Shown here: positions 22,401-57,638 of the stretch, in pieces | Numbering within the stretch: the stretch's first letter is position 1 | How the letters are laid out: every line of letters starts with the position of its first letter | Virus record (IMG/VR): IMGVR_UViG_3300046340_000069 | Length of the DNA stretch: 60,734 nt | DNA from: an uncultured virus (IMG/VR IMGVR_UViG_3300046340_000069) | Taxonomy: Duplodnaviria > Heunggongvirae > Uroviricota > Caudoviricetes | Reading direction: 5' to 3' (one strand) | Notes under the pieces: generated by a model | Seen by the model: only the letters and a program-made list of their open reading frames with translations | Database searches by the model: none | What the model was told of the DNA's origin: nothing | Program-made: the position numbers and the translations under genes

Positions 22401-24779
22401 CACTACTCTACCGAATTCAACATTGACAGAAAATTTAGCACCACTACCAGTAGTATTGATTACCTTTAATTCTGGACTAGTGAAGTAGTTTATACCACTA
22501 TTTTCTACCGATACGGACACAATTACTCCCAATTCTACCACTATACTAAATACCACTCCACTACCAGATTTTAAATATACTTCTGGAGTGGCAGAATATA
22601 CATCGGTGTTTGGGATGGCTAATGATTTGTAGTTGATAGGATCAAAGTCAACATCTGATAGTTCTGTAGGTAGAAAATAATATTTACCTACAAAACCAGA
22701 TATATACACGTTTGTAGTGGGAATAGTTAATGGAGTTAGATATTTCCCACCATTAACTATTTTTATTTCTGGGATCTCTGTATACCATTTACCAGGATTT
22801 TTTATTATTATTCCATTAATTACTCCACTCACATCATAATCAACTTCCAACTCCATATCTATCCCAGTAACATCATTAATATTTCTGGTGACAATTACTT
22901 CTGGCTTTTTATTATATCCACTCAATAAATCTTGGCTGATACCATCCAATGTTATTCTCTTCAAACTTCCATATATTTTTATAATATTGCTGTAATTCTG
23001 AGTATTAACATACAACTCTGGAATAGATTCATTAATTCTATTCGGTAAAAAATAATCATCCCCATTACTAATAATATCGATATTAGTCAAGTTACCATAG
23101 TCAATAGTTGCCCCTTTATAACTACAAATTTCTACCCCATTGGTGGTTAAGCCAATACCTTTATTGGTTGGACTTGGTTCGACTATATTATTTTTGATAA
23201 ATCTTTTCAGGATAGTTTGTTCCGAAAATGATCTAGTATTCGTAGTACTTACTGGCTTACCATCAGCAGTAATATACATATAATCATCAGTATCATATAT
23301 ACCATAAATATTACTCCACACATTGTATTCGGTAGCATCTTTAGTGATTGGAGATATACTATCAAAGATACTATCATTTTTATACCCACTGGCACCATCT
23401 AAAATCACGGCACCCGACCCACTACTAATTACTGAAAACTGACATTTTTTGTTGCCGGAACTCAATTCAACGGTAGCTGTACGATATTGATTATCGCTAT
23501 AAATTCTATACAATTTTACCACATCTTCGCCAACCATACTATAATTTTGCGTACCAGGAATCAATACATTTCTCGTAATACCAATCAGTTTATTGATAGT
23601 CTTAGATGTATAATTTATATACTCACCATTTAGACTGACTGTACCAGCAGTAGGAAATCCAATAGTAGAATCAACAATAATATCAGTTCCTACTATTGGA
23701 ATTAATTTGGTAGTTGGTGGCACATATAGTGAGTTATTTTTATCAGTGATAATCTTGACTATTACTCTTTCATTATCCCGATAAACTACACTTAAATCCG
23801 AGGTATAAATACTTATTTTATTCTGTGTTAATACAATATTCTTCTCTGATCTGATCTGCTCAAAATTGGTAGTGGTATCATTTAATTCTAATAATATTTC
23901 AGAATATACACTGTTGTCAGAATTTGTTTTAATCGTATACTCGTACGGTAATATTACAGAAGGTTCTTCGGTAGTAATATCTATATTGTTTATTACTGCT
24001 GTACAATTGGTACTAGTTATAGACTCACCAATTCTAAAACTTTTATCAGTTTCGTTCAAATATAATTCATTTATATCGGGGTTCCAATATGTAATTTTAC
24101 CCTTCGCGCCACTAATACTGCCAGTAACAATAGAATTGATATCAAAATCACGTTCAAGAATTACTACATTATTATTGTTGTTGTATAGAGTACCAGGATT
24201 TACTATGGACACCGCAGTAATCACTCCAGCGACTATATTATCTATTTGCAAAACCGCATCAGTACCAGCACCAATCACATCAATTGTTGGTTTGAAATTG
24301 TTGTTATAGCCAGAACCGCCATTAATTATAGTAGCAGTAGCTACGCTGCCATTCAACACTTCTAACAATACTACCGCACCAGAACCTCTCAGCAGTACTT
24401 TAATTTTGGTGGTAGTGTCATCGAACAACAATTTGAATAACGTTTTGATCGATTCCTCAGTACCTTTGCTGGTGTTGAAATCTTTGATGTGGGGTATTAA
24501 TGTCGAGTAATTGATTTTAGGATTCAATTTTTGTGGTAGATTTCCTAGATATTTGTATCTAAACTGGTCTAAGATCAGGTTTTGTTTATCTGTAAGATCT
24601 TGTATTTTATAGTTTTGAATATTGTAGTACTCAATCAGATTGTTCATCAGATCCAAATTGCCCAACGGCTGTTCTTGAGACTTGTAGTATTCCTCAATGA
24701 ATTGTACAAATTTAGGGTAACTCTCTACAATGTGATCTGGTAATAGTGATGAGACGGTGAGACTACTAGTTACTTTCAT
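19473..24779 (-). CDS. Large baseplate wedge protein (cyanophage gp7-like) with YHYH-type domain
   Basis: N-terminal YPKFVQFIEEYY..SKGT..LFKLLF; GSGY repeats; HSPIIGWAFDGVPIYG...TPEFPEGRYCYF. Confidence 0.75.
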   Translation of the reverse strand: MKVTSSLTVSSLLPDHIVESYPKFVQFIEEYYKSQEQPLGNLDLMNNLIEYYNIQNYKIQDLTDKQNLILDQFRYKYLGNLPQKLNPKINYSTLIPHIKDFNTSKGTEESIKTLFKLLFDDTTTKIKVLLRGSGAVVLLEVLNGSVATATIINGGSGYNNNFKPTIDVIGAGTDAVLQIDNIVAGVITAVSIVNPGTLYNNNNNVVILERDFDINSIVTGSISGAKGKITYWNPDINELYLNETDKSFRIGESITSTNCTAVINNIDITTEEPSVILPYEYTIKTNSDNSVYSEILLELNDTTTNFEQIRSEKNIVLTQNKISIYTSDLSVVYRDNERVIVKIITDKNNSLYVPPTTKLIPIVGTDIIVDSTIGFPTAGTVSLNGEYINYTSKTINKLIGITRNVLIPGTQNYSMVGEDVVKLYRIYSDNQYRTATVELSSGNKKCQFSVISSGSGAVILDGASGYKNDSIFDSISPITKDATEYNVWSNIYGIYDTDDYMYITADGKPVSTTNTRSFSEQTILKRFIKNNIVEPSPTNKGIGLTTNGVEICSYKGATIDYGNLTNIDIISNGDDYFLPNRINESIPELYVNTQNYSNIIKIYGSLKRITLDGISQDLLSGYNKKPEVIVTRNINDVTGIDMELEVDYDVSGVINGIIIKNPGKWYTEIPEIKIVNGGKYLTPLTIPTTNVYISGFVGKYYFLPTELSDVDFDPINYKSLAIPNTDVYSATPEVYLKSGSGVVFSIVVELGVIVSVSVENSGINYFTSPELKVINTTGSGAKFSVNVEFGRVVSVEVINGGSSYFNNPTLVVNYFPNSAVFAATINSWTYNIANNAPIDSTGGYVYNQGDSGVGESNLPDTNFSPQYLQLVHIEPVRTVHSPIIGWAFDGVPIYGAYVDAPRGGVDKLYSSWTLKITTSTNRPTAPLGTFIEDYEYIGGVLDEYNGVFAYTPEFPEGRYCYFATDAFPYFVGNQYKYKFDSYNHLKLQNNCNIPSGSIRIYNDEVKFPSPNNKIYPYLAKVDNISYGAIDDYLIEIPGINYAVGDIIKFEDVNIKIIVSAVSNTGGIIGVNIIDNGINLESIPPHTILSQYGVGAVIIFRSDTIGTIKNIKNITNGDGFGGDPTINYSVDSDVILDIKFNNTITDFIIITNGIGYTENSVVLNNQFSASLVVANSVISRIDIIESDNYFESIPIVSISIGIGATIIPILSKSDINTSIVYYGLTRNNYVAKGKINLYNKIASTLQVKSLFGKFVVNNDYFLWDESGRKIGKIHNVRTAELICTPTSNKTIQDFTDNLDSIITSNNVIADNLTHQQYSYSIKSPHSLIEWKNFVVDNVHMLGNKIYSIYSIDNIVKMYLHRETQINNVIDYKINIENILSILAEKNETDFVINIDSLPEDLYKNTKFKKQYFDYIWNDNDYVHSNYSSFINYDYGDLVWLTENHNRLILEKINSNTVLATDYSIIKFNNLVSRIASNSILYINGVTQHPSYDYSVANNNVTIHQTINDLSDRVSILNLPSSFLTYTDKKVLTNSNTTTLTTNTNLFVPVDVSKLIMFVNNVPNNEFSIVGNNVVFTQNITGTAYGVYSDNFTALNLVSLTNKIYTITNNPTNRNIILFVNGVIQPSANYTTTSTTLTVNSTDFITHLSAWIVDDTIGVDDVYSIVYNSNNDKDVIPAEFKFNIVGGELTGVDIVYAGLHYPRYMMLAVEGVADPAKILLECLNGSIVRAKIIDAGSGLTNTNYTTKLYYYGQIESEHYCMIESDVSIIV

Positions 24780-24951: not shown

Positions 24952-25376
24952 TCAGTGTATGTATGATGTGTTTAAGATATCTAACAATAGACAAAATTGA
25001 TGGAATGATAATTTCAACATATCATTTAAAATAAACCAACTATGTCTTTTTTTGGGGTCACTAATCCACTTCACTTCACTTGTTTTTTAGTCAATTCTAA
25101 TTCTGTTTGATATTTTAATAAAAACTCACCAGATATAAATTCTGGCAAGTTTAATTCTGTATATGCCTTATCAGAGATATTATTATAATAATATCTCCAT
25201 TTAAAATACAAAGAATTCATTCCATTGTCCTCATTCTTCTTAATAGAATACCCAGTAGTAATTCCTAGTATTCCCTCTGCACATAGGCAAGTTTGATCAT
25301 TTTTATCAACCAAACTACAAAACCCTTGTTTATATTTTGCGAAGTTGTCTTTCAGTTCTTGTAATTTGTTAATCAT
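24952..25376 (-). pseudogene. Fourth paralog of the tandem MINKL family, frameshifted by an extra 5-bp unit
   Basis: (cactt)x3 at 25067-25081; removing one unit restores ...QVKWISDPKKRHSWFILNDMLKLSFHQFCLLLDILN, matching the paralog C-termini. Confidence 0.8.
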
Positions 25377-25445
25377 GATAATTTACTCAAAAAAATTAGT
25401 TTATGTGACTTGAGGGACACTCTAGAACTAGTAGGGGGAGCATAT

Positions 25446-25856
25446 TTATTGTTCATTCAATAAATCTAGCAGCAAAGAAAATTGGGAGAAGGTTAAGTTA
25501 ATATAATCATTAATATCATGCCAAAAAAATGAATCAAATTCTTTATTAATGCTAACAATTTGAAATTTTGTTAATTTTAATTGTTTTTGATGAGTTAATA
25601 ATAAAGTTTTAGGAATGGGGTTGGGTAAATTTAATTGTTGATACACACTGCCAGGTATAGTACTATAATAGTATCCTCCATCCAATAGTATCATTTTTAT
25701 ATTATTGTGCATAGGAACATTAGCAATTGTTCCCCCCACAGTAATTGCTAATACCCCTTCAGCACATAGAGAACACCCATCAAGAGACACCAATCTTCGG
25801 TGATATTGATTATATTTGGCGAAATTCTCTTTTAATTGTTCTAATTTATTAATCAT
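25446..25856 (-). CDS. Hypothetical protein, tandem paralog family
   Basis: MINKLEQLKENFAKY..LCAEG..LNLP..LTF.QF.LLLD. Confidence 0.8.
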   Translation of the reverse strand: MINKLEQLKENFAKYNQYHRRLVSLDGCSLCAEGVLAITVGGTIANVPMHNNIKMILLDGGYYYSTIPGSVYQQLNLPNPIPKTLLLTHQKQLKLTKFQIVSINKEFDSFFWHDINDYINLTFSQFSLLLDLLNEQ

Positions 25857-25873
25857 GATATATATATATCTAT

Positions 25874-26281
25874 CTATAATTTGTTCAGGATGTCCAGCAG
25901 TAAAATAAATTGTGGAAAGGTTAATCTGACAATATCGTTTAGATTTGCCCAAGAAATGAGAGAATTAAGACTTTGTAGCATATCTATTTGTCTCGAAGTT
26001 AGTTGTAATTTTTTTGCCCACCAAAGAAGTTCAATTTTTGTTATATATTTGGGTAAATTTAACTCTGTATAATGGTAGCTGGGTATAGAAAACTCAAAAT
26101 AGCAACTATTTTCTTCTTCGTAAACCATATCGTCAGAAAATGAATATTGTTTTTTGATAATTAAACCATTAGATATAGCCAAAATAGCCTCTGCACACAG
26201 GCATTCGCCAGTCACTAATTTACAAAATCCTTGTTCATATTTGGCAAAATTCTCTTTTAATTGTTCTAATTTATTAATCAT
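25874..26281 (-). CDS. Hypothetical protein, tandem paralog family
   Basis: Same motifs as neighbours. Confidence 0.8.
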   Translation of the reverse strand: MINKLEQLKENFAKYEQGFCKLVTGECLCAEAILAISNGLIIKKQYSFSDDMVYEEENSCYFEFSIPSYHYTELNLPKYITKIELLWWAKKLQLTSRQIDMLQSLNSLISWANLNDIVRLTFPQFILLLDILNKL

Positions 26282-26705
26282 GATATATATATAGTTTGTC
26301 CAGAATGTCCAGCAGTAAAATAAATTGGGAAAAAGTTAATCTGACCCCATCGTTCAAAGATGCCCAACAAATTTGTTCGCCTTCCTGCATAATAGCCTTA
26401 ATTTGCTTTTTTGTCAACTTTAATTGTTCCCCCCATCCTATTAATTTTGATGTAGATATAAGCAACGGCAAATCTAAATTATCATAGATATTATGAGGAA
26501 TATTCAAATATAGATATACCCCATTAATACAAAACATGGAGACGTTATGTTCTGGATGAATTTTGATGTCAAGACCAGCAGTAAGTCCTAAAATTCCTTC
26601 TGCACAAAACTCGTATCCATCTTCATCTGTATTTCTCATCAACCTGCCGTATGTTTGTTCAAATGTGGCGAAGTTTTCTTTTAATTTGGTTATTTTTTCA
26701 ATCAT
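26274..26705 (-). CDS. Hypothetical protein, tandem paralog family
   Basis: Same motifs as neighbours. Confidence 0.8.
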   Translation of the reverse strand: MIEKITKLKENFATFEQTYGRLMRNTDEDGYEFCAEGILGLTAGLDIKIHPEHNVSMFCINGVYLYLNIPHNIYDNLDLPLLISTSKLIGWGEQLKLTKKQIKAIMQEGEQICWASLNDGVRLTFSQFILLLDILDKLYIYHD

Positions 26706-26749
26706 GATGCTTTCCTCAAAAAATTAATTTTCGTGCGTTGTAGGGCATT

Positions 26750-26956
26750 CTAGCGGTGTTTGGGAAGATATTCTCGCAGTCTGTCCATCTGTTTTAGTTC
26801 TTCTTTGTTTAATGTTGGTTGTAGCACATTAAAAAACTCTACCATTGCTGTTGCTTGTTGTGCTGCACTCTTAGCTGGTAGATCATCTTCGTAATATGCG
26901 ATTTCACTTGCTAGGAGTAGTTTAAAGATATTTTCTGCCAGTTGTTTGTCAATCAT
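26750..26956 (-). CDS. Hypothetical protein
   Basis: 68-aa ORF. Confidence 0.6.
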   Translation of the reverse strand: MIDKQLAENIFKLLLASEIAYYEDDLPAKSAAQQATAMVEFFNVLQPTLNKEELKQMDRLREYLPKHR

Positions 26957-27006
26957 ATATTAATAATGTTGGCTTATTACTAGTATATAACAGATTCTCG
27001 TTTTTG

Positions 27007-27345
27007 TCAAGATAAATCACGAAAAAACTCACCAATTTCTATTTTTTTCCTTTTTATTGAACTAAATAATTTAGGGACTACCCAACCTTGTCTATATCTG
27101 GAATGTATTGTATTGTAGCTTAGATTAAATGCAATGCACCATTCGCGCAAAGTTTGTTTTTTTTTAATTGGTACGAATTCCCTGTTGCAATATTCACATA
27201 CTTTTGATTTCTTTTGATATATATATATATTATGAAATTTTTTATAATCTGATAAATTTTGATATCCATGAGATTTAACATGAAATCTTAAATTATATTT
27301 GTCATAGAAGTTATTACAATTAACACATATTACACTATTTAACAT
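27007..27345 (-). CDS. Small zinc-finger/DNA-binding protein, probably an endonuclease relic
   Basis: CVNC..H..H and CEYC motifs; TLREWC..LSYNTIHSR..GW C-terminus; TGTTATAAT extended -10 upstream. Confidence 0.55.
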   Translation of the reverse strand: MLNSVICVNCNNFYDKYNLRFHVKSHGYQNLSDYKKFHNIYIYQKKSKVCEYCNREFVPIKKKQTLREWCIAFNLSYNTIHSRYRQGWVVPKLFSSIKRKKIEIGEFFRDLS

Positions 27346-27448
27346 AACAGTTAATTTATAAGATAATATAATTATTATAACACAAATCCCCAGAGTTATC
27401 CAGGGATTTGTGTTATGTGTTATTCAGTTTTACATGATGAGGCTTATA

Positions 27449-27870
27449 CTATATGGAGTTGAAATATTCTGCAATAGTTATAATTTTTACTTCATCGGTA
27501 ATTCGGTTTTTGATGGTGATTGCGGTGTCACCTGTAACACATTTCCCGCTTTGACGAGGTTGTCCCCAATATTAGCTAACCAGTTTATTGATTATGCGGC
27601 AATCGGGGACAAAAAAGGATACTTAACGACAACGAAGCGGTTGCGGTCAAACGTCTTCAGCAATTTTTCCTGATATTTATAAAGTTTTATATTTGTCAAC
27701 CCTTTATCCAATGTAACGATTTTGATGTAATTATTTGCAAAATAATTTATATCTTTTTTGCACTTCATAAATTCGTTTACATTATCCTCATCAAATTCTA
27801 TGTCTACACCAATTCTTTTTAGGAGCGGATTCGATTGAAAAGAGTTTTCCAGTTCTTTTTTTCTTGCCAT
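27449..27870 (-). CDS. gp17: Large terminase gp17 fragment 1 (N-terminus to Walker A) plus 30-aa split-intein N-fragment; interrupted by a 56-nt gap at 27560-27615
   Basis: NPLLKR..YFANNYIKIVTLDKGL..LYKYQEKLL..NRFVVVKYP then, after the gap, RQSGK|CVTGDTAITIKNRITDEVKIITIAEYFNSI*. Confidence 0.85.
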
Positions 27871-27954
27871 TTTTATTTTTGCTTGGATAAGTGTTTGAGT
27901 AATAATATTTATACGCAATATAAATAAAAATAAAATATGGCAACATATAAAAAT

Positions 27955-28752
27955 TTAGCCTATCATGAATATAGGATATTCCTCCCATTCTGATGACATT
28001 TTCGCCAAAAATGCTTCTTTTTCTCGAACACCGTCGTTGTATAGTGAGTCAGCGTTAAACATCACCCCACTAGGAAGTTGTATATTAGAAAATTTTCTTA
28101 GATTTTGCCCAAATTGTATTTTGACAAGTATTGCGAAATATTCTTTGACGAATCTATCATTATATATCTTCGCAAATTGAACAGGATCGAGTGCGCGTTG
28201 ACACTGAATAATTATAAAACGATCTAACATTGATTCAATATCAAAATCTAGATATAATCTACCATTATTTCTATTAAATTTAATAGCAGTTTCCGCATTC
28301 AATATATTTATAATGTTTTCAATGCTTTGACGTAGTAGATAAATATCAGTCAGATCTAACATCTGACCACCATAAAAGTTAAACTGTTCCATTATGAAGA
28401 ATTCGGGGGATCGACCGAACATGTCATGTAGGTAATTATTATTTGTTCTGGCAACACTAGTAATGCCAATTATATAGTCAGGAACTATTAAAAAGTTTTG
28501 ATTGTCAAAGAATGACAATCCACCAGGATTCAATATTTGTGTGTGTGTCTTTTTGTTATCAATATCTTGCTGTGTAATTTTATATTTAAGATACACCTCT
28601 TCTGTGCCGTCATACACACGATCCTGGTATAGTTGGAGTACGTCATCAAGAAGTTGTTCTAACTGGGAATTCTCTACATTTATTTCTATTAGTGGCGCAC
28701 CTAATTTCTTTTTTGCGTAATCAAACAATGCTGTGCGAGAATTTATTGACAT
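27955..28752 (-). CDS. gp13: Neck protein gp13
   Basis: KLGAPLIEINV..QFGQNLRKFSNIQLPSGVMFN. Confidence 0.9.
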   Translation of the reverse strand: MSINSRTALFDYAKKKLGAPLIEINVENSQLEQLLDDVLQLYQDRVYDGTEEVYLKYKITQQDIDNKKTHTQILNPGGLSFFDNQNFLIVPDYIIGITSVARTNNNYLHDMFGRSPEFFIMEQFNFYGGQMLDLTDIYLLRQSIENIINILNAETAIKFNRNNGRLYLDFDIESMLDRFIIIQCQRALDPVQFAKIYNDRFVKEYFAILVKIQFGQNLRKFSNIQLPSGVMFNADSLYNDGVREKEAFLAKMSSEWEEYPIFMIG

Positions 28753-29881: not shown

Positions 29882-32800
29882 TTAAGAAGCAGTACTGATA
29901 ATTCTAAGATTTTTTATGGTTGGGTACGATGCTTGATTGTCAGATTTACAAACAATCTTGATTTGAAATTTTTTGTATTGTGGTATGTTTCGTAATTCAA
30001 ATCTAAACTCTTTAAAATCACTATTGGCTGGGTATACAATAGATGGAACCAATACAAAGTTATTATTATCAAAATTAGGAGAATTGTCTTCTCTGGATAA
30101 CTTTAGATATACTTCAATACTCTCACTGGCGTTTCTAGTTGCATCCAATATGATAGTAATTGCTTGCGACGGAAGAATTAATGATATAGGTTTAGTGATG
30201 TATACGAATGATGACATAATATAATTAGGTAACAACTCATTCCCAGCAACATTATTAATTATATTGGTGGTAGCTACTACAGAACATTTATCATAGTCAA
30301 TAATTGGTGAGATATTTTCGTTACTGGTGGACATATCTATATTTAATTTCATAGATTTGGTGCCCAATATCGCTTCATTATCGGTAGATGCCACCAATAA
30401 TGGTTTGTTGAAATTAGTAGTTTTATCTATAGACAGATCAGAAGTAAATGGAATATATGATGGTTGGATTAGATTAGTACTAGAAATACTAGTTCCAGTA
30501 GTGGCGATTAATGATAAATTAACATTAGTTTCTGGGAAATATTTATAAGATATGTTTGGTGTGACTGATTCATATTGGTGATTGACAGAAACACTAATAT
30601 TATCCCCACCACAAACATTCGTATAATTGGCACTAGAAATAGCGTATACCCCAAAATTATCTAAATCAATTGGTACAATCGAAGTAAAGGTTTTATTTAA
30701 TTCTACTAGTGGAATACCATTTATAGAATAAATCTCTACTACACTATTTGTTAAATGCTGAATGATTGAAGTGTTATTCTTACCTCTACCACCAGCAGGG
30801 ATAGTGATTAATTTTGTGCCATTATTCACATTAATATATGATAGGATCTCATCATCTATTTTGATATAACCTGGATTGGTGATAGATATTGGTAGATTAT
30901 TTATAAATTGAGGTACCAATTCAGGAGTTTCTACTGGTATCGTTGTAGCCACTGTATACTGAGTGTCAGAAATAATATCAGTCAATATAGTTGGAATATA
31001 ATTAGACACTATATTCTTTATAGTCACACTGTTATTAGTGGTGTGCATCCCATGATTTTTGGAATATACACTAACTAAGTTGCTATTTTTTGTTGTGGTT
31101 ATATAATTTCCAATAATTTCTGGGAGATTGTCTTCATTATTAAAATTAATATTTCCAGTCAAACTAAATTTTGCTTTATTCAACTTGAATTTTATCGATT
31201 TCTTATTGTCTGCGATCCAATTTTTATAGTTTTGTGGGACGTATAGATTGGAAATATTAGGATTTTTGATTGAAACTATATCAGTTGTATTTTTTACTTC
31301 AAAGTCATTACTGAATATTTCATAATTATTTGAGTTAGATAGTACACAAATACAATATTGAGTATTGTCCTTTAAGTATACCATATTATTAAATTTAATA
31401 ATAGTAGGCGTATTTCCATCACTACTGGTAACTATATCTTTTGTATTTACGCTTATTTCTGAGTATGGTAGAATAGTTTCAGTAGGATAGTTATTTTCAA
31501 CAGTTCTCAACTGAACTATTAAAGGGATGAAATTATCTTTTTTGTTGAAGAATAGTTCTAATGAGGTGATAAAGCAGCCACCAACAATATTGTTATTAAA
31601 TGATTGAGTTATTGGACTATTCCAACCATTATTGTTGATGATATTACCATTGATCTGATTTTGAATTATGTTAGTGTCATTATTTTCAGGAATGCTTAGT
31701 GAGATGATGTCTTTAGTTTCGATGTTAGAATTGCCACCACACTGAAATATGGTTTTAGCAAATGTAGTATTACCAATTGCGGATAACACTAGTGTTCCTA
31801 CTGAAAATTTGTAATCGCTTTTAGTTGGGTTGGGAATAAATACATTTCCTGCAAAATTACCATTGTCATCACTAATGATATCAGTGTTTGTCAAAATTGC
31901 AATTGCCCCCGAAGTTTGTCCAATGATGTATGTGCCGACTCCAATATCCTCCACATTAAACTGATACCCGTCATTCCAATTTATTTTTATGGTGTTAGTG
32001 GTGCCAGTGTACACTCCACTAGATAAACTATCTACTTTGGCGGATATATAATTTGATAGTACTGTTGGCTGATATCTTGAACCTGTTAATACTCTAGTAT
32101 TGACATTTCTCCACAACAATTTTTCACCAACTACAAATGATATAGTATTAGTGCCATTAGTACCATCCTTTTTAATTACACAAGTAGAGGGTACTACTAG
32201 ATCTGTAATATTTTTTGAATTTATATATACATCCAGTTTAGTGTTTGGTTTTAGTGCATCTATATTTATTTTTATAGTTTGTTGTTTTAAGTAATTGTTG
32301 GTGTTAGTATTTTTCTTAGTAGATTTGTTGCTGGTGATAGGCAACCAATTTTCTTTGTCAGAGTAATCTCCATAAAACCAATTGTCAGAACTAGGATGAG
32401 TGTTTATAACACCTTCCCAATTATTCAACGCATATGGATTGACCTTCAATACATAATTTTTGTTATTTTGTTCGATAAATGTTGCCTCAGTATATGGTAG
32501 ACTGATTAAATTATTGCTTATTTTGTAACTACCATTATTAATTTTCAATTTTATATTTTTACTTGCAGTCTTTGGTACTAAAGTTTGATCATCGGGATTT
32601 ATGCTGCTTTTATATGCTAAATTACTTATGTCGGATAATTGGTAATTTAAAAATTCATCTACCACAAATCCAGTCTTTAGTCGAACTATTCCAGTATTGT
32701 CTAGTAATACTGTATTATTGGCAGTAGATTCTAATTTGTTTAATGCTATTTCATTTTCTGTATTTTTTATTCTTTTTTCTAAATTTCCAATATCTTCCAT

Positions 32801-35800
32801 AGTGTATCTCTTGTTTGGATACACCACAGTTTTAATGTCACTAATAGCTTTAACTACTGGTGGGATTTGTAATGTTGCTATCGCCAAACAATCTTGTGGC
32901 AGATCGGGATTATTTGGATTGTTTGCCGAAATACCACTAATTATTCTACATTTACCAGTAGTATCTATTATTAGTAAATCTGTTCTAGGAGTGTAATAAT
33001 TATAATCACCTTTTAGTATGGTGCTTGGTGCAGGAAATGATCTTAGTTTTAATAGTCTGGTGCTGGGGTTTAGACCACTATACAACAAACTATATGGGGA
33101 TAGGAGATTGCCTAGTCCAACAATTGTTGGAGATTTAGCATAGTATCTCAAATCGATTATATTAGTCTCTATATCATCAGTTGGGTTGATGTAAGAATCA
33201 ATACTCGTTATATCTCCTATACTAGTGTTAAAATAATCAAACACCACTACTAAATGATTGGTGGGTATGTTACTATTATTGATTATGGTCAATTTGTCGA
33301 TGTCATGAATGTTATTATTACTATTTTTTATTAATTTGTAATTGCCAGTTACATCAATATAATTTCCTCTATATACATTTGTCACTGTACTAGTAGTTGC
33401 AGTATTCCAATTGAACGCTGTATCAGCAATATTAAAATGATTGCTACTGTAATATATTAAATTTAATATATTACCAGTTATGCCTATTATTTTGGCTTTT
33501 ATATTCTTGTTATAAACAATATCACCTACATTAAATAATGAATTGTTGGATATAGTGATATTGTCGAAACATTCATTAGTGTAGTTGTTATTGGTATTGT
33601 CATTGTTAGAATATCTGACTGCCAATACATTACTCACATTACTATATCCTAAAGATAGTTCAGGATCATCATAACGAATACCATAGTCAGAAGGAACTAC
33701 ATCAGTTTTTGACTTAATGTACTTTATTACTTTATTTTGTATTAAAGTATTAGTAGTAATGGTTGGGGTGAGTAATTCTACGGTATAAGAAACTAACCCA
33801 TTCCCAGTAAAGGGCACTCCTAGATTTACTAAAGTTATTGTGTTAATCCCTGTAAATGTACCAACAAAACTTCCTACACTGGTCTGCACTAGCGTATCTC
33901 CACTATAAATTTCATTAATATTTTGATTTGGCAGTACGCCCACATTATTTGTGAACGATATTGAACTGTTTCTTATAATAGAAATAGTTTTGTTGGTGGT
34001 GTCTTTGATATTCTTATCTGTTAATGGCACATATAAGTTTTTGTTATTACTTTTTAGTATAGTAACAGATTTGTAGATGGTATCAATATTTTGAGAAGTA
34101 AAGCTATTGGATAAAGAAAGAGTAGTATTATTTAAAATGCCATCAACTGTGGTAATAACCCCAGCCAAATTTATATTACTTCCAACATGTAATTCTGATA
34201 TAAATTTAGAATTAATACCCGTTAAGGTTGTGCCATTGACATTGAAGTTGCTACCAGTCAAAACAAATTCTGTTTTTAATGTTGATGCCGCAAATCCGAC
34301 TCTACCAATACTTCTAATATCATCAATCAAGTAATCTCTTATTTCCAATATATTGTTGATGATATTGTTTTTTGAGTTAATAATTGGTTCGTTCAAAATA
34401 AATGTACCTGTATTGTTCTCCAACGTAATCATATCACCAACTACTGAATATACATATCCAGAAGAACCAGAAATTGTTCCAGTCACATGATCGCCATAGA
34501 CGATATTAGTTAATGCCCCACTTACTCTTAAATCGGTGTGAGTGGATAAATCTATCACATACAGTCTCACCGAATTTTGAAGATAATTAATCGATACGGC
34601 TTTGGCTACCCCAATAATCTTCGATGGGGTAGCTACAGTGCTAGTACTATATAAATTTATATTTTGTGGTGATGATGATACATCTAACATACCGCCTATG
34701 CCACTAATTTCAAGATAAGACCCACAATCTATGAATGATTGGTGATTTATTCTTCGGTTTGTTTTGGTGGGTAGGTCTACGGTTATTAATTGTTTATCTG
34801 GAAACTTGTAATTGTACCCCTTTACTACAGCATCGCCAGCAGACAATTCCACAGAAAAGTAATCATTTCCATTGATCTTATTTGGTTCACTCACCAATGG
34901 ATCTACATTGATTACTGTTCTATTTTGATCGTCTACCTCATTTACTTTATATACACCATTATTAAATAAATTATCTAGTGTTGGGTATACATTAATGTCA
35001 AAATCCTTGAGTACATAATTGCCAGCTTGTTTGTAAGTCTGAACCGCAATTGCATCAATAATTTGAGTATTTACACTTACATCGATTTTGTAATTGATAT
35101 TTCCATTCAATATTTGTACTAACTCTGTGTAATTAGTAGGAATGGCGGAACCATAAGTAAGTTTTACTACATTTGCTAATATTTGTAATCTGTCTGCTCC
35201 AACAGCAGCACAATTATTGAATCCATTCGCATTATCTGTTAAAGTTGCGTCATCTACAGCAGTGACAAATTTAGGAGTAAATTGTATCCCAATACTATAA
35301 TTACCTGTGTTGGTGTATTGATCTAATACCACACTAGTATTGTTCAGGTTGGTATAGTACCCGTCCCAATAAAATGTGCCCTGATTTACGTGTACTATAC
35401 TTGAATTATATAGTGTACTATTCGTGCTAATAGTTGTGGCAAATTTAATATTATTGAATGACAATATTTCATTATCTGCAAATTTGTTATATTGTACTCC
35501 CATCAATACAGTACCACCACTAACATATTTTACATATAATGATGGTTTGGATATAGTACTATTCTTTTTGCTTACATATGCAACTACTATGGCTTGTACG
35601 TTTGTAGTATTACCTTTAATAGTTTTGCCAATTAGTTTATTTATTTCTACATCGGGTGTATTGCCATTAAATAGATCATTTAATAATACTACATCTACCT
35701 CTTTGTCATGAGTAATCTCACCACCAGAAATCAAATCTCCATTTTGGTATTGTACATCAGATAAAGATTTTATTTGATTCTGAGCAATACTTTGTAGATT

Positions 35801-52727: not shown

Positions 52728-55139
52728 TCATTCTTTGTCAAGTACTATTTCTGAATCAATATCTATGCACTCTTGCTTCTGCTCTAATATGTTCTGTTCT
52801 TTTAATAAATTGTATAATTCTCCTAATTGTATGTCTCTCTCAACCCCCTCTAGATCGATGATACGAACAATACTACAAGATGAAAGCGACTCAAACTCCT
52901 GCTCGAATTGTTTAGCACTCGTATTCGCGATGGTCATTCGTTTAAATTCCGCATCTCTTCCTGGAATCATATCCCATGTAATCTCTACTGGCACATACTC
53001 ATTCTTACCATTCTTTGCATCAACAAAAATACGATAAAATAAGTTTAGCCCACGGGGGGTTTGTTCACCAACAAATCCATTATAGATAACGGAATGACAC
53101 CAAGGATCGTTAGGAACATTATCTAGAGAAAAATCATATAACTGTTCGATGTGGTCGTCATTAATCCGACGAATTTTAGTCCACAACAAATCCGGTCTAA
53201 CATTCAATTCAACAAATTCGCTAACACTACTATTAATTACAGATTGAATGATTGGTAATTTTTTAAGAGCATTTTGTCGATTCATGTGTACATATTTGTG
53301 TTGTCCCTCCCCATTAAAAGCAAAATATTGTTTAATATATTTCTTTTGTGTTTCTAATGGGAGATGTTGTTTAATGAATGGAATAAAAAATGGAATAGAA
53401 TCACTCTGTTTACGAAATTTTCTGATATTAGTCTGATAGCAATTCCATTGTTGTTTGTGAGGATGTTTAAAATTAATTATTTCAAAAAATTCTGGGGTGT
53501 AGCAATTTGGTATCTTCAGCAAAGTGCGACGAGAGTATCTCATTTTTCTTCTCATATGCCAATAATATCTTCGTTGTTCATATAACCCCTTTTTGATAGA
53601 ATTAACCACACCAATATTCAATAATAATAGGTGTATTTGTTCCAATAGGTCTTCATTAGTATTAGTGATGTATATATCACCATAATTGTTATTTTTTTTA
53701 CGATGATTCACTAGTGCCATACTATCGAAGCATCCTTGGAGAAAGGTAACAGTATTAATTTTAGACCACCGAAGGGGAATATCAGTTAGACCATTTCCAA
53801 AAGTAGTATACTTATCAGGAGAAGTGTACTTCAATTTTTTTAATACACTGGCTAGTTCAATTGAATCTATAATGTAATTAACCCCATCAAACTCATAATC
53901 CAGTCCAATATTTTTTATGGCATCATCATAACAATCCTCATCCAAATATCCACTATCCGTAATACGAAGAGTCAGAGTAATAAATCTGCCATCAGTTATA
54001 TAACCACTACCAGCATATATACCAAAAAAATAAGCAAATTCTGGAGTAACTATTGGGAATTTTTCAGAATCTAATGTATCCAAATTACCAAATATTTGAG
54101 TATTATATCTGACTGCAATAAAATCATTAGGTTCCAACTCAGATGCCCTAAACCAACCATATTTGCCTTGCTTACAGGCATAAAGTTTATGAGTAGTCGA
54201 ACACTCCAATTCAGTAAAATTAGTATATATTTTTCTAACGTTTGATTTACCGTTATTACACATAACAGTACCTTTATTATTTCCCTTCATACCCACTAAT
54301 TCATATGGTGGGATATGATATGATTTTTTCTCTAATTGATCTTTAATAAAAGTTTCGATGCGAGTATAACCTTTAGTGGTGAGAATATATGTATTTTTCA
54401 CTACACAAGAAGTGATAATTAATTTAGATTCTTTAGATGACGAAATAGTAGGATATACCGAGGTCATAAACTCTTCTTGGATACCATTAGGGACGAATGC
54501 GAATTCGTCGCAAAATACGATATTGAAGGTAGACCCGCGAACAGAGGTGGCACTGGTGGATGAGGCTAATATTTGAGAACCATTTTCAAGTTCGATATGT
54601 GTTTTATTCCATTGTATTACTCCTTGTTGTAACCACATTGGCAAATTTTCATATGCCATTTGTAGTCTACCTAATAGTTCCATAGATAGATCTCTTTTGT
54701 TTGCTAATATTGCAATATTTTGATGAGGTTTAAATAGTGCGACCCAGAGGGCATAGCAAATCATCGTAGTCGAGTTATGTGAAACTATATTATTGGTGAT
54801 GTAGAGGTCATCTTCTACATTCAATAAATCATACATATTTTCAATATTATCTGATTCATTAATAGCAAGAATTATATCAGGATACAAATATCCACCATCA
54901 TCCATTACCAATATCTCGTCCCCAACTATTAAATCTACTAGTTTAGTTTCTTCATACTCATCTTTATCATTCAATCTAATTAGAATATGATCGTCAGCAC
55001 AAGATAGATGATATTGGGTGGTGTATACGTTCCAAACATTATATTTAATAGTTTGCCCTACTCCAGCAAAATCTTTATATCCAGTAGGCGTTAGTACTTG
55101 CCAATCATTAGTATATTTTTCTTGTACAAACTCAGCCAT
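52728..55139 (-). CDS. gp17: Large terminase gp17 fragment 2: IntC1 (aa 1-122), ATPase extein, cis-intein, extein, IntN2 (last 53 aa)
   Basis: ..ITNNIVSHN|STT; ILANK, ELENGS, Walker B IVFCDEFAF; ITS|CVV...GEQ|TPRG; FEQEFE|SLS..LGELY. Confidence 0.93.
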   Translation of the reverse strand: MAEFVQEKYTNDWQVLTPTGYKDFAGVGQTIKYNVWNVYTTQYHLSCADDHILIRLNDKDEYEETKLVDLIVGDEILVMDDGGYLYPDIILAINESDNIENMYDLLNVEDDLYITNNIVSHNSTTMICYALWVALFKPHQNIAILANKRDLSMELLGRLQMAYENLPMWLQQGVIQWNKTHIELENGSQILASSTSATSVRGSTFNIVFCDEFAFVPNGIQEEFMTSVYPTISSSKESKLIITSCVVKNTYILTTKGYTRIETFIKDQLEKKSYHIPPYELVGMKGNNKGTVMCNNGKSNVRKIYTNFTELECSTTHKLYACKQGKYGWFRASELEPNDFIAVRYNTQIFGNLDTLDSEKFPIVTPEFAYFFGIYAGSGYITDGRFITLTLRITDSGYLDEDCYDDAIKNIGLDYEFDGVNYIIDSIELASVLKKLKYTSPDKYTTFGNGLTDIPLRWSKINTVTFLQGCFDSMALVNHRKKNNNYGDIYITNTNEDLLEQIHLLLLNIGVVNSIKKGLYEQRRYYWHMRRKMRYSRRTLLKIPNCYTPEFFEIINFKHPHKQQWNCYQTNIRKFRKQSDSIPFFIPFIKQHLPLETQKKYIKQYFAFNGEGQHKYVHMNRQNALKKLPIIQSVINSSVSEFVELNVRPDLLWTKIRRINDDHIEQLYDFSLDNVPNDPWCHSVIYNGFVGEQTPRGLNLFYRIFVDAKNGKNEYVPVEITWDMIPGRDAEFKRMTIANTSAKQFEQEFESLSSCSIVRIIDLEGVERDIQLGELYNLLKEQNILEQKQECIDIDSEIVLDKE
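53061..54407 (-). mobile_element. Contiguous 449-aa intein with LAGLIDADG-like endonuclease domain, ending in Gln
   Basis: Starts CVVKNT; block B CSTTH; FAYFFGIYAGSG and FLQGCFDS motifs; LYDFSL; ends YNGFVGEQ before Thr. Confidence 0.88.
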
Positions 55140-56414: not shown

Positions 56415-57638
56415 ATGTTAAAATTACTTCCGTCATTACAGCAAAATATAGGAAATTTGGTAGAAACACCAGATGGTTTCGAGAAATTTATGGGAGTGCA
56501 GAAAATTTATAGAAATAAATATATAGAATTAGAATTCTTAGACGACAATAAATTAGTTTGCTCACTTAATCATCCGATAAACACCACAGAAGGTATAATA
56601 TTAGCTAAAGATCTCACTAAAACTATAGAAATAATTGGAAAAGTAAATAATACTTTTCTTAAAACAAAAAAAACTATAAGAAAAAAAATAGAATTATATG
56701 ATATTGTTAATTCTGGCAAGAATCATTGGTATTATGCGAACGATATATTAAATAAAAACTGTAGCTTCATAGGTTCATCGCTCACCCTTCTTAATGCCAA
56801 TAAATTAGCAGCATTAACCCATAAAGAACCAATAGAAAGAAATGACAATATAGTTGTCTACGCAAAACCAAATCCTACGCATAGATATATGATTTGTGCA
56901 GACACCGCAGAAGGTGTTGAAAAGGATTATTCAGTAGCAATGGTGTTTGACATCACTACTGTACCATACACCATAACAGCTATTTATAAAAACAATAATA
57001 TTGCACCAATAGTATTCCCCAACATAATATTGAAATTGGCGAATGAATATAATAAAGCTTACGTTCTTGTAGAGTTAAACAGCATTGGATCACAAGTAGG
57101 AGATATTCTACATTACGATCTAGAATATAGCAACCTACTTATGACAGCCACCGTGGGACGAAACGGGTTAATTCTAGGTCAAGGATTCGGTAATAAGTGC
57201 AAATTTGGATTACAAATTACTAAAACTACAAAACGACTAGGTTATAGTAACATGAAATCTTTGATTGAAGATGATAAATTACTAATAGAAGATTTTGGTA
57301 TTATTAGTGAATTATCAACATATGTAGAAAAAGGGGATTCTTATGCAGCAGATGATGGTAGTAATGATGATCTAGTAGCTTGTATCGTATTATTTTCTTG
57401 GTGTGTTACCCAGCCGTATTTCAAAGAACTTACAGATTTAGACGTAGCAAAAGATATTCGGGAATTACACAGACAAGAAATAGAAGACGACATGGCGGTA
57501 TTAGGTGCTTTATTGATAAATGGAGAAGAATTAGAAGATGGTATTGTGGAAGAAGGTGGAGATCTGTGGTGGAATGCTAAGTTAACTGACAGTTATTATG
57601 AGTACGGGTACGAGGTGCCAGTTATTTATTACTTTTAA
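56415..57638 (+). CDS. gp17: Large terminase gp17 fragment 3: IntC2 (aa 1-115) plus nuclease domain
   Basis: TPDGF..F.GVQK..CSLNH..LYDIVN..YYANDILNKN|CSFIGSS.TL; nuclease motifs ADTAEG..DYS, ELNSIG, NDDLV. Confidence 0.93.
   Translation: MLKLLPSLQQNIGNLVETPDGFEKFMGVQKIYRNKYIELEFLDDNKLVCSLNHPINTTEGIILAKDLTKTIEIIGKVNNTFLKTKKTIRKKIELYDIVNSGKNHWYYANDILNKNCSFIGSSLTLLNANKLAALTHKEPIERNDNIVVYAKPNPTHRYMICADTAEGVEKDYSVAMVFDITTVPYTITAIYKNNNIAPIVFPNIILKLANEYNKAYVLVELNSIGSQVGDILHYDLEYSNLLMTATVGRNGLILGQGFGNKCKFGLQITKTTKRLGYSNMKSLIEDDKLLIEDFGIISELSTYVEKGDSYAADDGSNDDLVACIVLFSWCVTQPYFKELTDLDVAKDIRELHRQEIEDDMAVLGALLINGEELEDGIVEEGGDLWWNAKLTDSYYEYGYEVPVIYYF

What the first reader, a model, noticed from the sequence alone, without database searches (positions are those of the whole stretch)
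27557..27618. Candidate translational bypass (ribosome hop) at the terminase Walker A: CCT - 56-nt hairpin - CCT
Seen: on the minus strand gp17 reads ..VVK-Y-CCT(27618-27616), then a 56-nt gap (tttttgtccccgattgccgcataatcaataaactggttagctaatattggggacaa), then CCT(27559-27557)-CGT-CAA-AGC-GGG-AAA = PRQSGK. This is the missing P-loop. All three frames of the gap contain TAA, so a simple frameshift cannot bridge it, and there is no start codon for the downstream part. The gap folds into an 11-bp stem (UUGUCCCCGAU/AUUGGGGACAA, one G-U pair) with an inner UAAUCA/UGGUUA stem covering the in-frame stop. A GGGGA SD-like element lies 3 nt before the second CCT. Established: T4 gene 60 bypasses 50 nt between matched take-off and landing codons, and the terminase is essential. 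Inference: Pro-CCU take-off/landing bypass over 59 nt, or an unknown RNA or DNA excision. It differs from gene 60 in that the stop lies 7 sense codons past the take-off site. The ends do not fit group I (terminal G) or group II (GUGYG..AY) introns.
Basis: partly seen in the sequence, partly recalled or inferred. Interest (0 to 1): 0.95.

Follow-up and report, generated by a model that had tools for sequence, protein, structure and literature searches.

The report
Conserved untranslated gap in phage terminase
A freshwater T4-like phage carries a conserved, hairpin-forming 59-base interruption just before the ATP-binding loop of its essential DNA-packaging enzyme, which ribosomes most likely jump over, a trick firmly established so far in one phage gene family.

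Summary
On the minus strand the terL N-terminal frame ends at CCT (27618-27616). A 56-nt hairpin follows, then CCT-CGT-CAA-AGC-GGG-AAA in another frame. Every frame of the gap has a stop, and no start codon precedes PRQSGK.

PRQSGK runs straight into the 30-aa N-half of an atypical split intein, and terL is scattered in three pieces.

- None of 84 more distant relatives whose DNA I read has a gap; their sequence aligns with the joined VVKYP-RQSGK without an indel.
- Seven other database proteins (43-79% identical) break at the same spot with a similar 7-codon tail.
- DNA was obtainable for one of them, L169. Its gap is 62 nt and far better conserved than the flanking coding sequence (46/52 against 68%).
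- All substitutions in its hairpin keep the pairing, and two are compensatory pairs.
- RQSGK differs at 5 of 5 codons, all synonymously.
- L169 has no matching Pro codon at the landing site (TCA), and its -1 frame is open.

Translational bypass is the best reading (about 0.5). A frameshift-based route, RNA excision or a defective allele are not excluded. No RNA or protein data exist.

The parts
27616..27870 (-). terL N-extein, first part: 85 codons, MARKK...RFVVVKYP, ending in the proposed take-off codon CCT (27618-27616)
   Evidence: 53-59% identical to TerL N-termini of T4-like cyanophages.
27560..27615 (-). 56-nt non-coding gap. Together with the second CCT it is a 59-nt insertion relative to gapless homologues.
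   Evidence: Stops in all three frames.
27602..27612 (-). 5' arm of the outer stem (UUGUCCCCGAU)
   Evidence: Pairing is kept in L169 with 2 double changes.
27575..27597 (-). Inner hairpin core, GC-A-UAAUCA / loop AUAAAC / UGGUUA-GC. It is 23 nt, identical in L169, and contains the frame-0 stop TAA at 27594-27592.
27572..27574 (-). TAA in the PRQSGK (-1) frame. This is the only stop of that frame within the gap. L169 has CAA here.
27560..27570 (-). 3' arm of the outer stem (AUUGGGGACAA). It includes the G-run 27567-27564, a possible mini-SD that ends 4 nt before the landing codon.
   Evidence: The 4-nt spacing is the same in L169.
27557..27559 (-). Second CCT, the proposed landing codon. Decoding would resume at CGT 27556-27554.
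   Evidence: Not conserved in L169, which has TCA.
27542..27556 (-). RQSGK, the first half of the Walker A loop and the end of the N-extein
   Evidence: 5 of 5 codons differ synonymously from L169.
27452..27541 (-). IntN: 30-aa N-half of an atypical split intein (CVTGDT...YFNSI), with stop TAG at 27451-27449
   Evidence: many relatives end the same way; complex with IntC scores 0.91 against best control 0.04
27007..27345 (-). 112-aa ORF with zinc-finger-like cysteines. It resembles part of an HNH homing endonuclease and is a possible remnant of the endonuclease that fractured the gene.
   Evidence: zf-C2H2_4, below cut-off; phrog_3377 HNH endonuclease, E 2e-6, partial
54774..55139 (-). IntC: 122-aa C-half of the same split intein, ending ...IVSHN, followed by +1 Ser (STTMICYALW...)
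   Evidence: (PDB 6dsl_B CatC, E 4e-8)
52728..54773 (-). terL middle piece. It holds the ATPase core (residues 123-244 and 694-750 of P0001), interrupted by a contiguous LAGLIDADG intein (about residues 245-693). It ends in a second short IntN (about residues 751-803). The boundaries are inferred.
56415..57638 (+). terL C-terminal piece: second IntC (residues 1-115, ...ILNKN), then CSFIGSS... and the nuclease domain
   Evidence: (CatC, E 5.5e-11)

Best explanation
The 59 nt (56-nt hairpin plus the second CCT) form a programmed coding gap in the mRNA of the first terL piece. Ribosomes translate MARKK...VVKYP. The peptidyl-tRNA(Pro) leaves the CCU at 27618-27616. The mRNA is threaded past the two-tier hairpin without decoding. 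The G-run in the 3' arm acts as a small Shine-Dalgarno-like anchor. The tRNA re-pairs 4 nt downstream of the G-run, at CCU in this phage and at near-cognate UCA in the L169 lineage. Decoding resumes at the Arg codon and gives ...VVKYP-RQSGK fused to a 30-aa IntN. That product then trans-splices with the IntC-STT... piece encoded 25 kb away and completes the Walker A loop.

Shown: the gap, its structure, its conservation, the selection on both flanking frames, and the split-intein context.

Inferred: that the joining is done by the ribosome, and the exact take-off and landing sites.

Likely origin (inferred): an insertion tied to the split-intein and HNH cassette at this homing hot spot, as with the gene 60 / MobE cassette of T4.
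For: (1) The joint is exact. 79 of 80 relatives in viral contigs read ...RFxIxKxPRQxGK[ST] without interruption, and 1 of 80 has an intein after GK. All 4 genome-contig loci are also gapless. VVKYP+RQSGK aligns to these with no indel.

(2) Both sides are coding. The N-ORF is conserved in 7 other gap-type proteins at 43-79% identity. RQSGK differs from L169 at 5 of 5 codons, all synonymously. The IntN is modelled onto its IntC at 0.91 against a best control of 0.04. That mark was reached by 51 of 78 solved complexes and 2 of 108 mismatched pairs. The runs agree in at least 90% of contacts and the partner pLDDT is 86. A like complex is solved (6dsl), so the pass may reflect likeness to it.

(3) No other route exists in this phage. 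All frames are stopped, and no start codon lies after the last stop. The 109-kb record holds no second N-piece or P-loop/IntN copy.

(4) The gap behaves as a functional RNA. The first 52 nt are 46/52 identical to L169, against 249/367 for the flanking coding DNA (binomial P 5e-4). A 23-nt core is identical (P 1e-4). Every substitution in the hairpin keeps or adds a pair, and 2 pairs change on both sides. 97% of cells are paired, against 22-55% when the partner is slid. Fold z is -3.46 for the window and -2.12 for L169.

(5) Several features match those reported for gene 60 cassettes in Manning and Atkins, bioRxiv 10.1101/2022.08.31.505936 (sections 10 and 16 read). A G-rich mini-SD lies a few nt 5' of the landing site, with the same 4-nt spacing in both lineages although the gap lengths differ by 3 nt. 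The gap has an in-frame stop and a frame change. The take-off position shifts by one or two codons among homologues (tails after P, PR or PRQ). The take-off and landing codons match in the window.

(6) There is a precedent in a terminase gene: the two 10-nt gaps of phage Hau3 (PMC10732093, passages read).
Against: - L169 has no Pro codon at the landing position. It has CCU before the gap and UCA before AGA. It needs a first-position G-U re-pairing or another rule.
- The codon after the take-off codon is UUU, a common codon here (29 per 1000). It is neither a stop nor a rare codon, unlike gene 60 and its homologues.
- The hairpin starts 4 nt after the take-off codon rather than at it.
- CCU UUU UUG is a U_UUU_UUG shift-prone heptamer present in both lineages. 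The L169 -1 frame is open for the 21 codons to RQSGK. Its chance openness is about 0.05 at this genome's off-frame stop rate.
- Covariation rests on two sequences only; 112 of 500 shuffles reach the observed score.
- There is no RNA, proteomic or reporter evidence, and no RNA run is listed.
Confidence: 0.5

Rival explanations
1. A -1 ribosomal frameshift occurs at the heptamer U_UUU_UUG (CCU UUU UUG), stimulated by the downstream hairpin. The gap is then translated in the -1 frame as a roughly 20-aa insert before RQSGK.
For: The heptamer is present in both DNA variants. It is compatible with 6 of 8 frame-0 tails, which begin F-L or F-F. The -1 frame is the PRQSGK frame. In L169 it is open from the heptamer to RQSGK (FLAPGCGIINKLVSQYWGGVS), with a chance of about 0.05. 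A conserved hairpin lies downstream.
Against: In the window the -1 frame has TAA at 27574-27572, four codons before PRQSGK, in all 3 IMG/VR copies and both spanning run contigs. No suppressor tRNA, or any tRNA, is found in the 109-kb record. 0 of 84 relatives whose DNA I read carry any insert at this point. An insert between strand beta-1 and the P-loop should wreck the ATPase (inference). The core shows 0 changes in 23 nt, with no synonymous change, while 20 of 36 flanking codons differ. That is RNA-level constraint, not coding constraint. The T-to-C change that opens the L169 frame also creates a new G-C pair in the stem. Two tails (PRQ-FSS..., PRQ-CVP...) have no slippery run. The spacer to the outer stem is 0-1 nt.
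Confidence: 0.1
2. The 59-62 nt are removed from the mRNA by an unknown cleavage-and-ligation or tiny-intron mechanism that uses the conserved hairpin as the recognition element.
For: The hairpin is more conserved than the coding flanks and shows pairing-preserving changes. The landing codon is not matched in L169, which excision would not require. T4-like phages are known to carry RNA ligases and end-healing enzymes (recalled, not tested here).
Against: Nothing in Rfam matches: the best hit overlapping the gap has E 0.33 and lies on the other strand. The size and ends do not fit group I or II introns. The distances from the stem to the two junctions differ between the lineages: 3 and 3 nt in the window, about 6 and 9 nt in L169. 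This argues against a structure-measured cut. No such mRNA splicing is known in bacteria or phages (recalled).
Confidence: 0.15
3. The gap is simply a disruptive insertion. This terL N-piece is dead, and packaging depends on another copy, a minor gapless allele in the population, or a helper phage.
For: The record is only about 59% complete, so a second copy cannot be excluded. Contigs hide minor alleles. The gap has inverted-repeat ends, and in the window it is flanked by CCT on both sides, like a small insertion element.
Against: The same break is kept in 8 distinct proteins down to 43% identity, with intact, conserved N-ORFs and an intact downstream RQSGK-IntN under synonymous-only change. 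The window type is seen on 12 contigs in the protein collection and in many runs. The 109-kb record has no second N-piece or IntN. The IntC piece has no other partner. The gap core has no other copy in the genome, and only 3 of 30 core-motif hits in IMG/VR are this element, all at this site.
Confidence: 0.1

Closest known systems
Phage T4 gene 60 50-nt bypass cassette and its homologues in Myoviridae topoisomerase genes (Manning and Atkins, bioRxiv 10.1101/2022.08.31.505936; abstract and sections 10 and 16 read)
   Same: A gap of about 50-60 nt lies in an essential gene of a T4-like phage, at an invariant motif. The gap is structured, with changes that keep the pairing. It has an in-gap stop and a frame change, and a G-rich mini-SD a few nt before the landing site. 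The take-off position drifts by a codon among homologues. It lies next to a gene fracture associated with a homing endonuclease. The gap is more conserved than synonymous sites.
   Different: The host gene is different (terL, not topoisomerase) and I saw no sequence likeness. The codon after take-off is a common Phe codon rather than a stop or rare codon, and the stop comes 7 codons later. The hairpin is two-tiered and starts 4 nt downstream of the take-off codon. [quoted passage not shown] The fracture is bridged by a split intein rather than by two subunits.
Streptomyces phage Hau3 large terminase, two 10-nt gaps after UUA (PMC10732093; passages read)
   Same: Frame-disrupting non-coding blocks sit inside a large terminase gene at conserved junctions. 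The flanks match adjacent sequence in gapless relatives. The paper gives the same argument that a frameshift would add residues at an invariant junction. Local structure brings the landing site close.
   Different: The gaps are 10 nt, not 59-62 nt. They are triggered by a rare, regulated codon in the A site. The terminase family and host group are unrelated. The paper reports a junction peptide by mass spectrometry in E. coli; there is none here.
Mitochondrial 'byp' elements of a yeast (massive programmed translational jumping; recalled, and mentioned as tolerating larger take-off/landing deviations)
   Same: Short structured inserts of tens of nt are skipped by ribosomes. Take-off and landing pairs are not always identical. 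The elements behave as mobile insertions.
   Different: Those are many copies per genome in mitochondria, with unassigned codons in the A site. This is a single-site element with no other copy in the record or in IMG/VR.
Atypical TerL split inteins (AceL-TerL, GOS-TerL, consensus Cat) and 'fractured genes' (PMC2677866 and PMC11766414; passages read)
   Same: A short IntN of 30 aa (25-37 aa in the literature) and a long IntC of 122 aa, the same length as the terminase case of PMC2677866. Both IntC halves here match PDB 6dsl_B CatC (E 4e-8 and 5.5e-11). An endonuclease-like ORF lies beside the break.
   Different: This concerns the context, not the gap. None of the passages I read mentions a coding gap upstream of the intein. 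Here the halves lie 25 kb apart, and a second split intein and a LAGLIDADG intein sit in the same gene.

Membership tests
Programmed translational bypass (gene 60 type) | Two coding segments in different frames, separated by non-coding nt, whose junction reconstitutes the homologous protein exactly | tested here: met
   VVKYP+RQSGK aligns without an indel to 84 of 84 gapless relatives. Stops in all frames.
Programmed translational bypass (gene 60 type) | Matched (same-tRNA) take-off and landing codons | tested here: inconclusive
   Window CCT/CCT. L169 CCT/TCA, a match only with a first-position G-U. n = 2.
Programmed translational bypass (gene 60 type) | [quoted passage not shown] | tested here: not met
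   The next codon is TTT, at 29 per 1000 in 9533 codons of 12 ORFs. The frame-0 stop is 7 codons further on, at a constant distance in 8 of 8 tails.
Programmed translational bypass (gene 60 type) | Conserved stem-loop at or after the take-off site, with pairing-preserving substitutions | tested here: met
   But it starts 4 nt after the take-off codon and rests on two sequences.
Programmed translational bypass (gene 60 type) | SD-like triplet a few nt 5' of the landing codon | tested here: met
   The G-run ends 4 nt before the landing codon in both lineages. GGG triplets lie 4-5 nt away in the window and 4-6 nt away in L169. The literature range is 5-7 nt.
Programmed translational bypass (gene 60 type) | Nascent-peptide signal; junction peptide or full-length product | not testable with these tools
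   No proteomic or reporter data. No RNA run listed.
-1 programmed ribosomal frameshift | Slippery X_XXY_YYZ heptamer | tested here: met
   U_UUU_UUG in the window and L169. 2 of 8 tails are incompatible.
-1 programmed ribosomal frameshift | -1 frame open from the shift site into the downstream coding segment | tested here: not met
   Window: TAA at 27574-27572. Met in L169 only.
Group I / group II or other catalogued RNA element | Match to a curated covariance model; canonical ends and size | tested here: not met
   Rfam E-value search of 26500-28500: 6 weak hits, none credible. 59-62 nt is too small.
MITE-like or other repeated mobile insertion | Further copies at other sites; target-site duplication | tested here: not met
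   No other copy of the core in the 109-kb record at up to 5 mismatches in 27 nt. 27 of 30 IMG/VR hits to the 17-nt core are unrelated, and the other 3 are at this site. The CCT repeat is absent in L169.
Atypical split intein of TerL (context) | Cys1 and a short IntN; long IntC ending in HN with a +1 nucleophile; likeness to solved atypical intein halves | tested here: met
   Splicing activity itself was not tested.

The most novel reading that the evidence does not exclude
This is a second, independently evolved family of long-range (59-62 nt) programmed translational bypass elements. It sits at the Walker A codons of the large terminase of uncultured freshwater T4-like phages. It has its own rules: a two-tier hairpin, no A-site stop or hungry codon, a G-run anchor at fixed spacing, and tolerance of a near-cognate landing codon. 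It arose at a split-intein and homing-endonuclease hot spot. There it may also break up the endonuclease target and so protect the genome, as proposed for gene 60 and MobE. The enzyme would then be made by ribosome hopping followed by two protein trans-splicing events and one cis-splicing event.
Probability: 0.45. Interest if true: 0.9.

Novelty: new variant of a known kind. Interest (0 to 1): 0.8.

Why it matters
Efficient long-range bypass is known in detail from the T4 gene 60 family. A non-homologous element of similar length would show which features of hopping are general: structure, an SD-like anchor and tRNA re-pairing. It would also show which are particular to gene 60: the A-site stop and the nascent peptide. 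This element is kept across a clade in an essential gene, and it lacks the A-site stop. It would also show that gene callers lose essential phage genes to such gaps. Here the large terminase needs one recoding event and three protein-splicing events to be assembled from three loci. Finally, it gives a compact 59-nt cassette that can be tested directly in reporters.

Tried and rejected
- DNA of the other six gap-type lineages (P0004, P0005, P0007, P0159, P0161, P0162) could not be obtained. Two metagenome-contig scans with degenerate junction patterns found 0 loci. A viral-contig scan with P0007 found none. The look-up of encoding contigs is closed. So the test of Arg/Arg or Gln/Gln landing codons, and a real covariation test, remain undone.
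- The genome-contig scan gave 4 gapless loci.
- The GenBank phage collection has no relative above 60% and no match to the gap at E below 2.
- A search with the L169 -1-frame peptide found no protein.
- Sequencing runs: no RNA holder is listed. Contigs of 4 runs showed no variant and no joint. Runs X17 and X24 did not cover the gap usefully.
- No tRNA was found in the record, so no suppressor was found.
- Take-off at the Ala codon just before the frame-0 TAA, the gene 60-like position, was rejected. The only Ala codons downstream keep frame 0, whose downstream peptide is not conserved between the lineages.
- A frameshift followed by a hop from AGC-TAA to the AGC of RQSGK was rejected. It would delete the conserved R and Q.
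- Independent initiation of PRQSGK-IntN was rejected for the window. No canonical or near-cognate start lies after the last stop.
- Earlier findings of the scan were not open.
- Literature: 'translational bypassing' + 'terminase' gave 4 papers. 'coding gap' + 'terminase large subunit' gave 2 listed papers that look unrelated by title and abstract start; I did not open them. 'ribosome hopping' + 'split intein' gave 0. None describes this element.

Full report
**Observation.** On the minus strand an 85-codon frame runs from ATG 27870-27868 (MARKK...) to ...RFVVVKY and CCT at 27618-27616. If read on, it gives FLSPIAA and stops at TAA 27594-27592. Fifty-nine nt after the first CCT, a second CCT (27559-27557) opens PRQSGK in the -1 (+2) frame. 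Upstream of PRQSGK that frame is closed by TAA at 27574-27572, and no ATG, GTG or TTG lies in between. The third frame has TAA and TAG. There is an 11-bp outer stem, and an inner stem UAAUCA/UGGUUA, closed by two G-C pairs, that carries the frame-0 stop. MFE is -31 kcal/mol, z -3.46, and 1 of 200 shuffles folds as well. Two other IMG/VR contigs are identical over 501 of 501 columns. Contigs of two further runs span the gap with no difference. All listed holders are freshwater metagenomes of one year and may be one campaign.

PRQSGK is followed at once by CVTGDTAITIKNRITDEVKIITIAEYFNSI and a stop. This is the short N-half of an atypical split intein.

- The matching C-half is the first 122 residues of an 803-aa ORF 25 kb away (55139-52728, minus strand). 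It ends ...IVSHN and is followed by STTMICYALW..., which supplies the missing S/T of the Walker A loop.
- It matches the solved consensus atypical intein half CatC (6dsl_B, E 4e-8).
- It is as long as the unusual terminase IntC of the 'fractured genes' paper (122 residues; PMC2677866, passages read).
- A complex model of the 36-aa P-loop/IntN peptide with residues 1-135 of that ORF scored 0.91, against a best control of 0.04. That mark was reached by 51 of 78 solved complexes and 2 of 108 mismatched pairs. The runs agree in at least 90% of contacts and the partner pLDDT is 86. Because a like complex is solved, this shows likeness rather than binding.
- The same ORF also holds a contiguous LAGLIDADG intein and ends in a second short IntN. 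Its partner IntC (CatC, E 5.5e-11) and the nuclease domain are on the plus strand at 56415-57638.
- An HNH ORF lies between these two pieces.
- A 112-aa ORF resembling part of an HNH endonuclease follows the first IntN (27345-27007; phrog_3377, E 2e-6).

So terL is in three pieces, and the gap lies 18 nt upstream of an intein insertion point.

**Why the two frames must be joined.** The 109-kb record is about 59% complete. It has no second copy of the N-piece or of the P-loop/IntN and no other copy of the gap core. I read the DNA of 80 relatives from viral contigs (45-59% identical in the N-piece). Of these, 79 read ...NRFxIxKxPRQxGK[ST]TT... without interruption, and one has an intein after GK. 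Four loci from genome contigs are also gapless. VVKYP followed by RQSGK aligns to all of them without an indel, so the window has a 59-nt insertion exactly at the Pro codon.

**The gap is kept in a clade.** Protein searches (tails read) found seven other N-piece ORFs of 92-94 aa that break at the same place. Each has a 7-codon tail and then a stop.

| Break follows | Proteins | Tail after the break |
|---|---|---|
| P | window (P0003) | FLSPIAA |
| P | P0007, P0157 | FLPLVAA |
| P | P0161 | FLPLVLV |
| P | P0162 | FLPPIAA |
| PR | P0005 | FFPLVLV |
| PRQ | P0004 | FSSLVPA |
| PRQ | P0159 | CVPLTNV |

These proteins are 43-79% identical to the window's. Two members of the same subclade (P0158, P0160) have no gap and run straight from ...VK[YF]PRQSGK into the IntN. 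A random lesion would not be kept with intact flanking frames over this divergence.

**The one other DNA variant.** Only P0157's contig is in the collections I could scan (L169). Its record has the same IntC-STT piece (63% identical, 810 aa open). In L169 the gap between CCT and the Arg codon is 62 nt.

- *Conservation.* The first 52 nt are 46/52 identical to the window, and a 23-nt core is identical. The N-ORF is 169/256 identical and the P-loop/IntN 80/111. The binomial probabilities at the flank rate are 5e-4 and 1e-4.
- *Pairing.* Every substitution inside the hairpin keeps or adds a pair. Two pairs change on both sides (U-A to C-G, A-U to G-C), one changes C-G to U-G, and one mismatch becomes G-C. 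97% of cells pair, against 22-55% when the partner is slid. With two sequences the shuffle control is weak (112 of 500).
- *Downstream frame.* RQSGK differs at 5 of 5 codons, all synonymously. That frame is therefore translated from the Arg codon onward, while the gap evolves as a structure rather than as codons.

**Points against the simple model.**

1. L169 has TCA, not a Pro codon, before its Arg codon. The matched pair is seen in one of two variants. A Pro tRNA could re-pair with TCA only through a first-position G-U. Such re-pairing is used in the RF2 frameshift (recalled). Latitude at landing sites is reported for gene 60 and for yeast mitochondria.
2. The codon after the take-off codon is TTT, which is common here at 29 per 1000. 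Gene 60 homologues have a stop or a rare codon there.
3. CCU UUU UUG is a shift-prone heptamer in both variants, and the -1 frame is the PRQSGK frame. In L169 that frame is open for 21 codons. The chance of this is about 0.05 at this genome's off-frame stop rate of 0.132.

Against a frameshift route stand five points. The window has a TAA in that frame in every copy. No tRNA gene is in the record. No relative tolerates an insert there. The core lacks any synonymous change. And the T-to-C change that opens the L169 frame is explained by the new stem pair.

**Points that fit bypass.** The run of G in the 3' arm ends exactly 4 nt before the codon that precedes the resume codon in both lineages (GGGG-ACAA-CCU and GGGGGGG-UGUU-UCA). 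The gap lengths differ by 3 nt, and the extra length is absorbed by the G-run. Gene 60 homologues have GAG, GGG, GGA or AGG 5-7 nt before the landing codon. Their take-off codon also shifts by a codon between clades, as the P, PR and PRQ tails suggest here. The distances from the stem to the two junctions differ between the lineages, which argues against a structure-measured RNA cut. Rfam gives nothing.

**Comparison with what is known.** The closest system by working principle is the gene 60 cassette, but this is not a member of it. The host gene is different, I saw no sequence likeness, and the A-site stop feature is not met. A terminase precedent exists in phage Hau3, with two 10-nt gaps and a junction peptide shown in E. 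coli (PMC10732093). My searches of the paper library found no description of a gap at the terminase Walker A or beside a split intein. The library lacks most subscription journals.

**Verdict.** The feature is real, conserved and functional-looking, and the two frames must be joined.

| Reading | Odds |
|---|---|
| Translational bypass from the last N-ORF sense codon to a site set by the G-run | about 0.5 |
| RNA excision | about 0.15 |
| Frameshift-based decoding | about 0.1 |
| Dead or complemented allele | about 0.1 |
| Something not thought of | the rest |

The decisive data are cDNA across the gap, a junction peptide, and the DNA of the six other lineages.

Noticed in passing
window 27452-27870 (-), 52728-55139 (-), 56415-57638 (+): The large terminase is encoded in three separate pieces on both strands, spread over 30 kb. 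They are bridged by two atypical (short-IntN) split inteins, and the middle piece carries a contiguous LAGLIDADG intein as well. The second split intein appears to start with Ser and have Cys at +1, like GOS-TerL as described in PMC11766414. Its boundaries are inferred from relatives' tails.
   Followed up: partly
window 25071-26705 (-): Four tandem paralogous ORFs of 101-168 aa all begin MI[NE]K[LI]..LKENFAKY.. and end ..LTFSQFxLLLDILN... They have no Pfam or PHROG match. They lie between the terL N-piece and a 1768-aa ORF.
   Followed up: no
window 27380-27413 (-): An 11-bp perfect hairpin (ACACAAATCCC ... GGGATTTGTGT) followed by a T-rich run lies about 40 nt after the IntN stop. It looks like a terminator for the N-piece transcript. 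The scan tool did not list it, probably because its loop is longer than 8 nt.
   Followed up: no
L070; proteins P0059, P0073, P0083, P0107, P0112, P0138: The same GK|S/T site of TerL carries a different, contiguous intein in other T4-like phages. It begins with Ala, Pro or Ser (GKALSLDT.., GKALDI.., GKPLFIQT.., GKSLKLDT..). The Walker A loop is therefore an intein hot spot with at least two intein types.
   Followed up: no
proteins P0019, P0200, P0231, P0233, P0238, P0263: Several database ORFs of cyanophage-like TerL N-termini run into the P-loop region in a wrong frame (for example ..NRFNICKI[NL]DRLVS..). They could be assembly frameshifts or further recoding sites. I did not examine their DNA.
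   Followed up: no
window 19473-24779 (-) and 29882-35917 (-): Two giant ORFs of 1768 and 2011 aa flank the terL N-piece region. They are Asn/Ile/Thr-rich and are probably virion or fibre proteins. The neighbour at 27955-28752 matches the head-tail adaptor Ad2 (phrog_211, E 2e-33).
   Followed up: no
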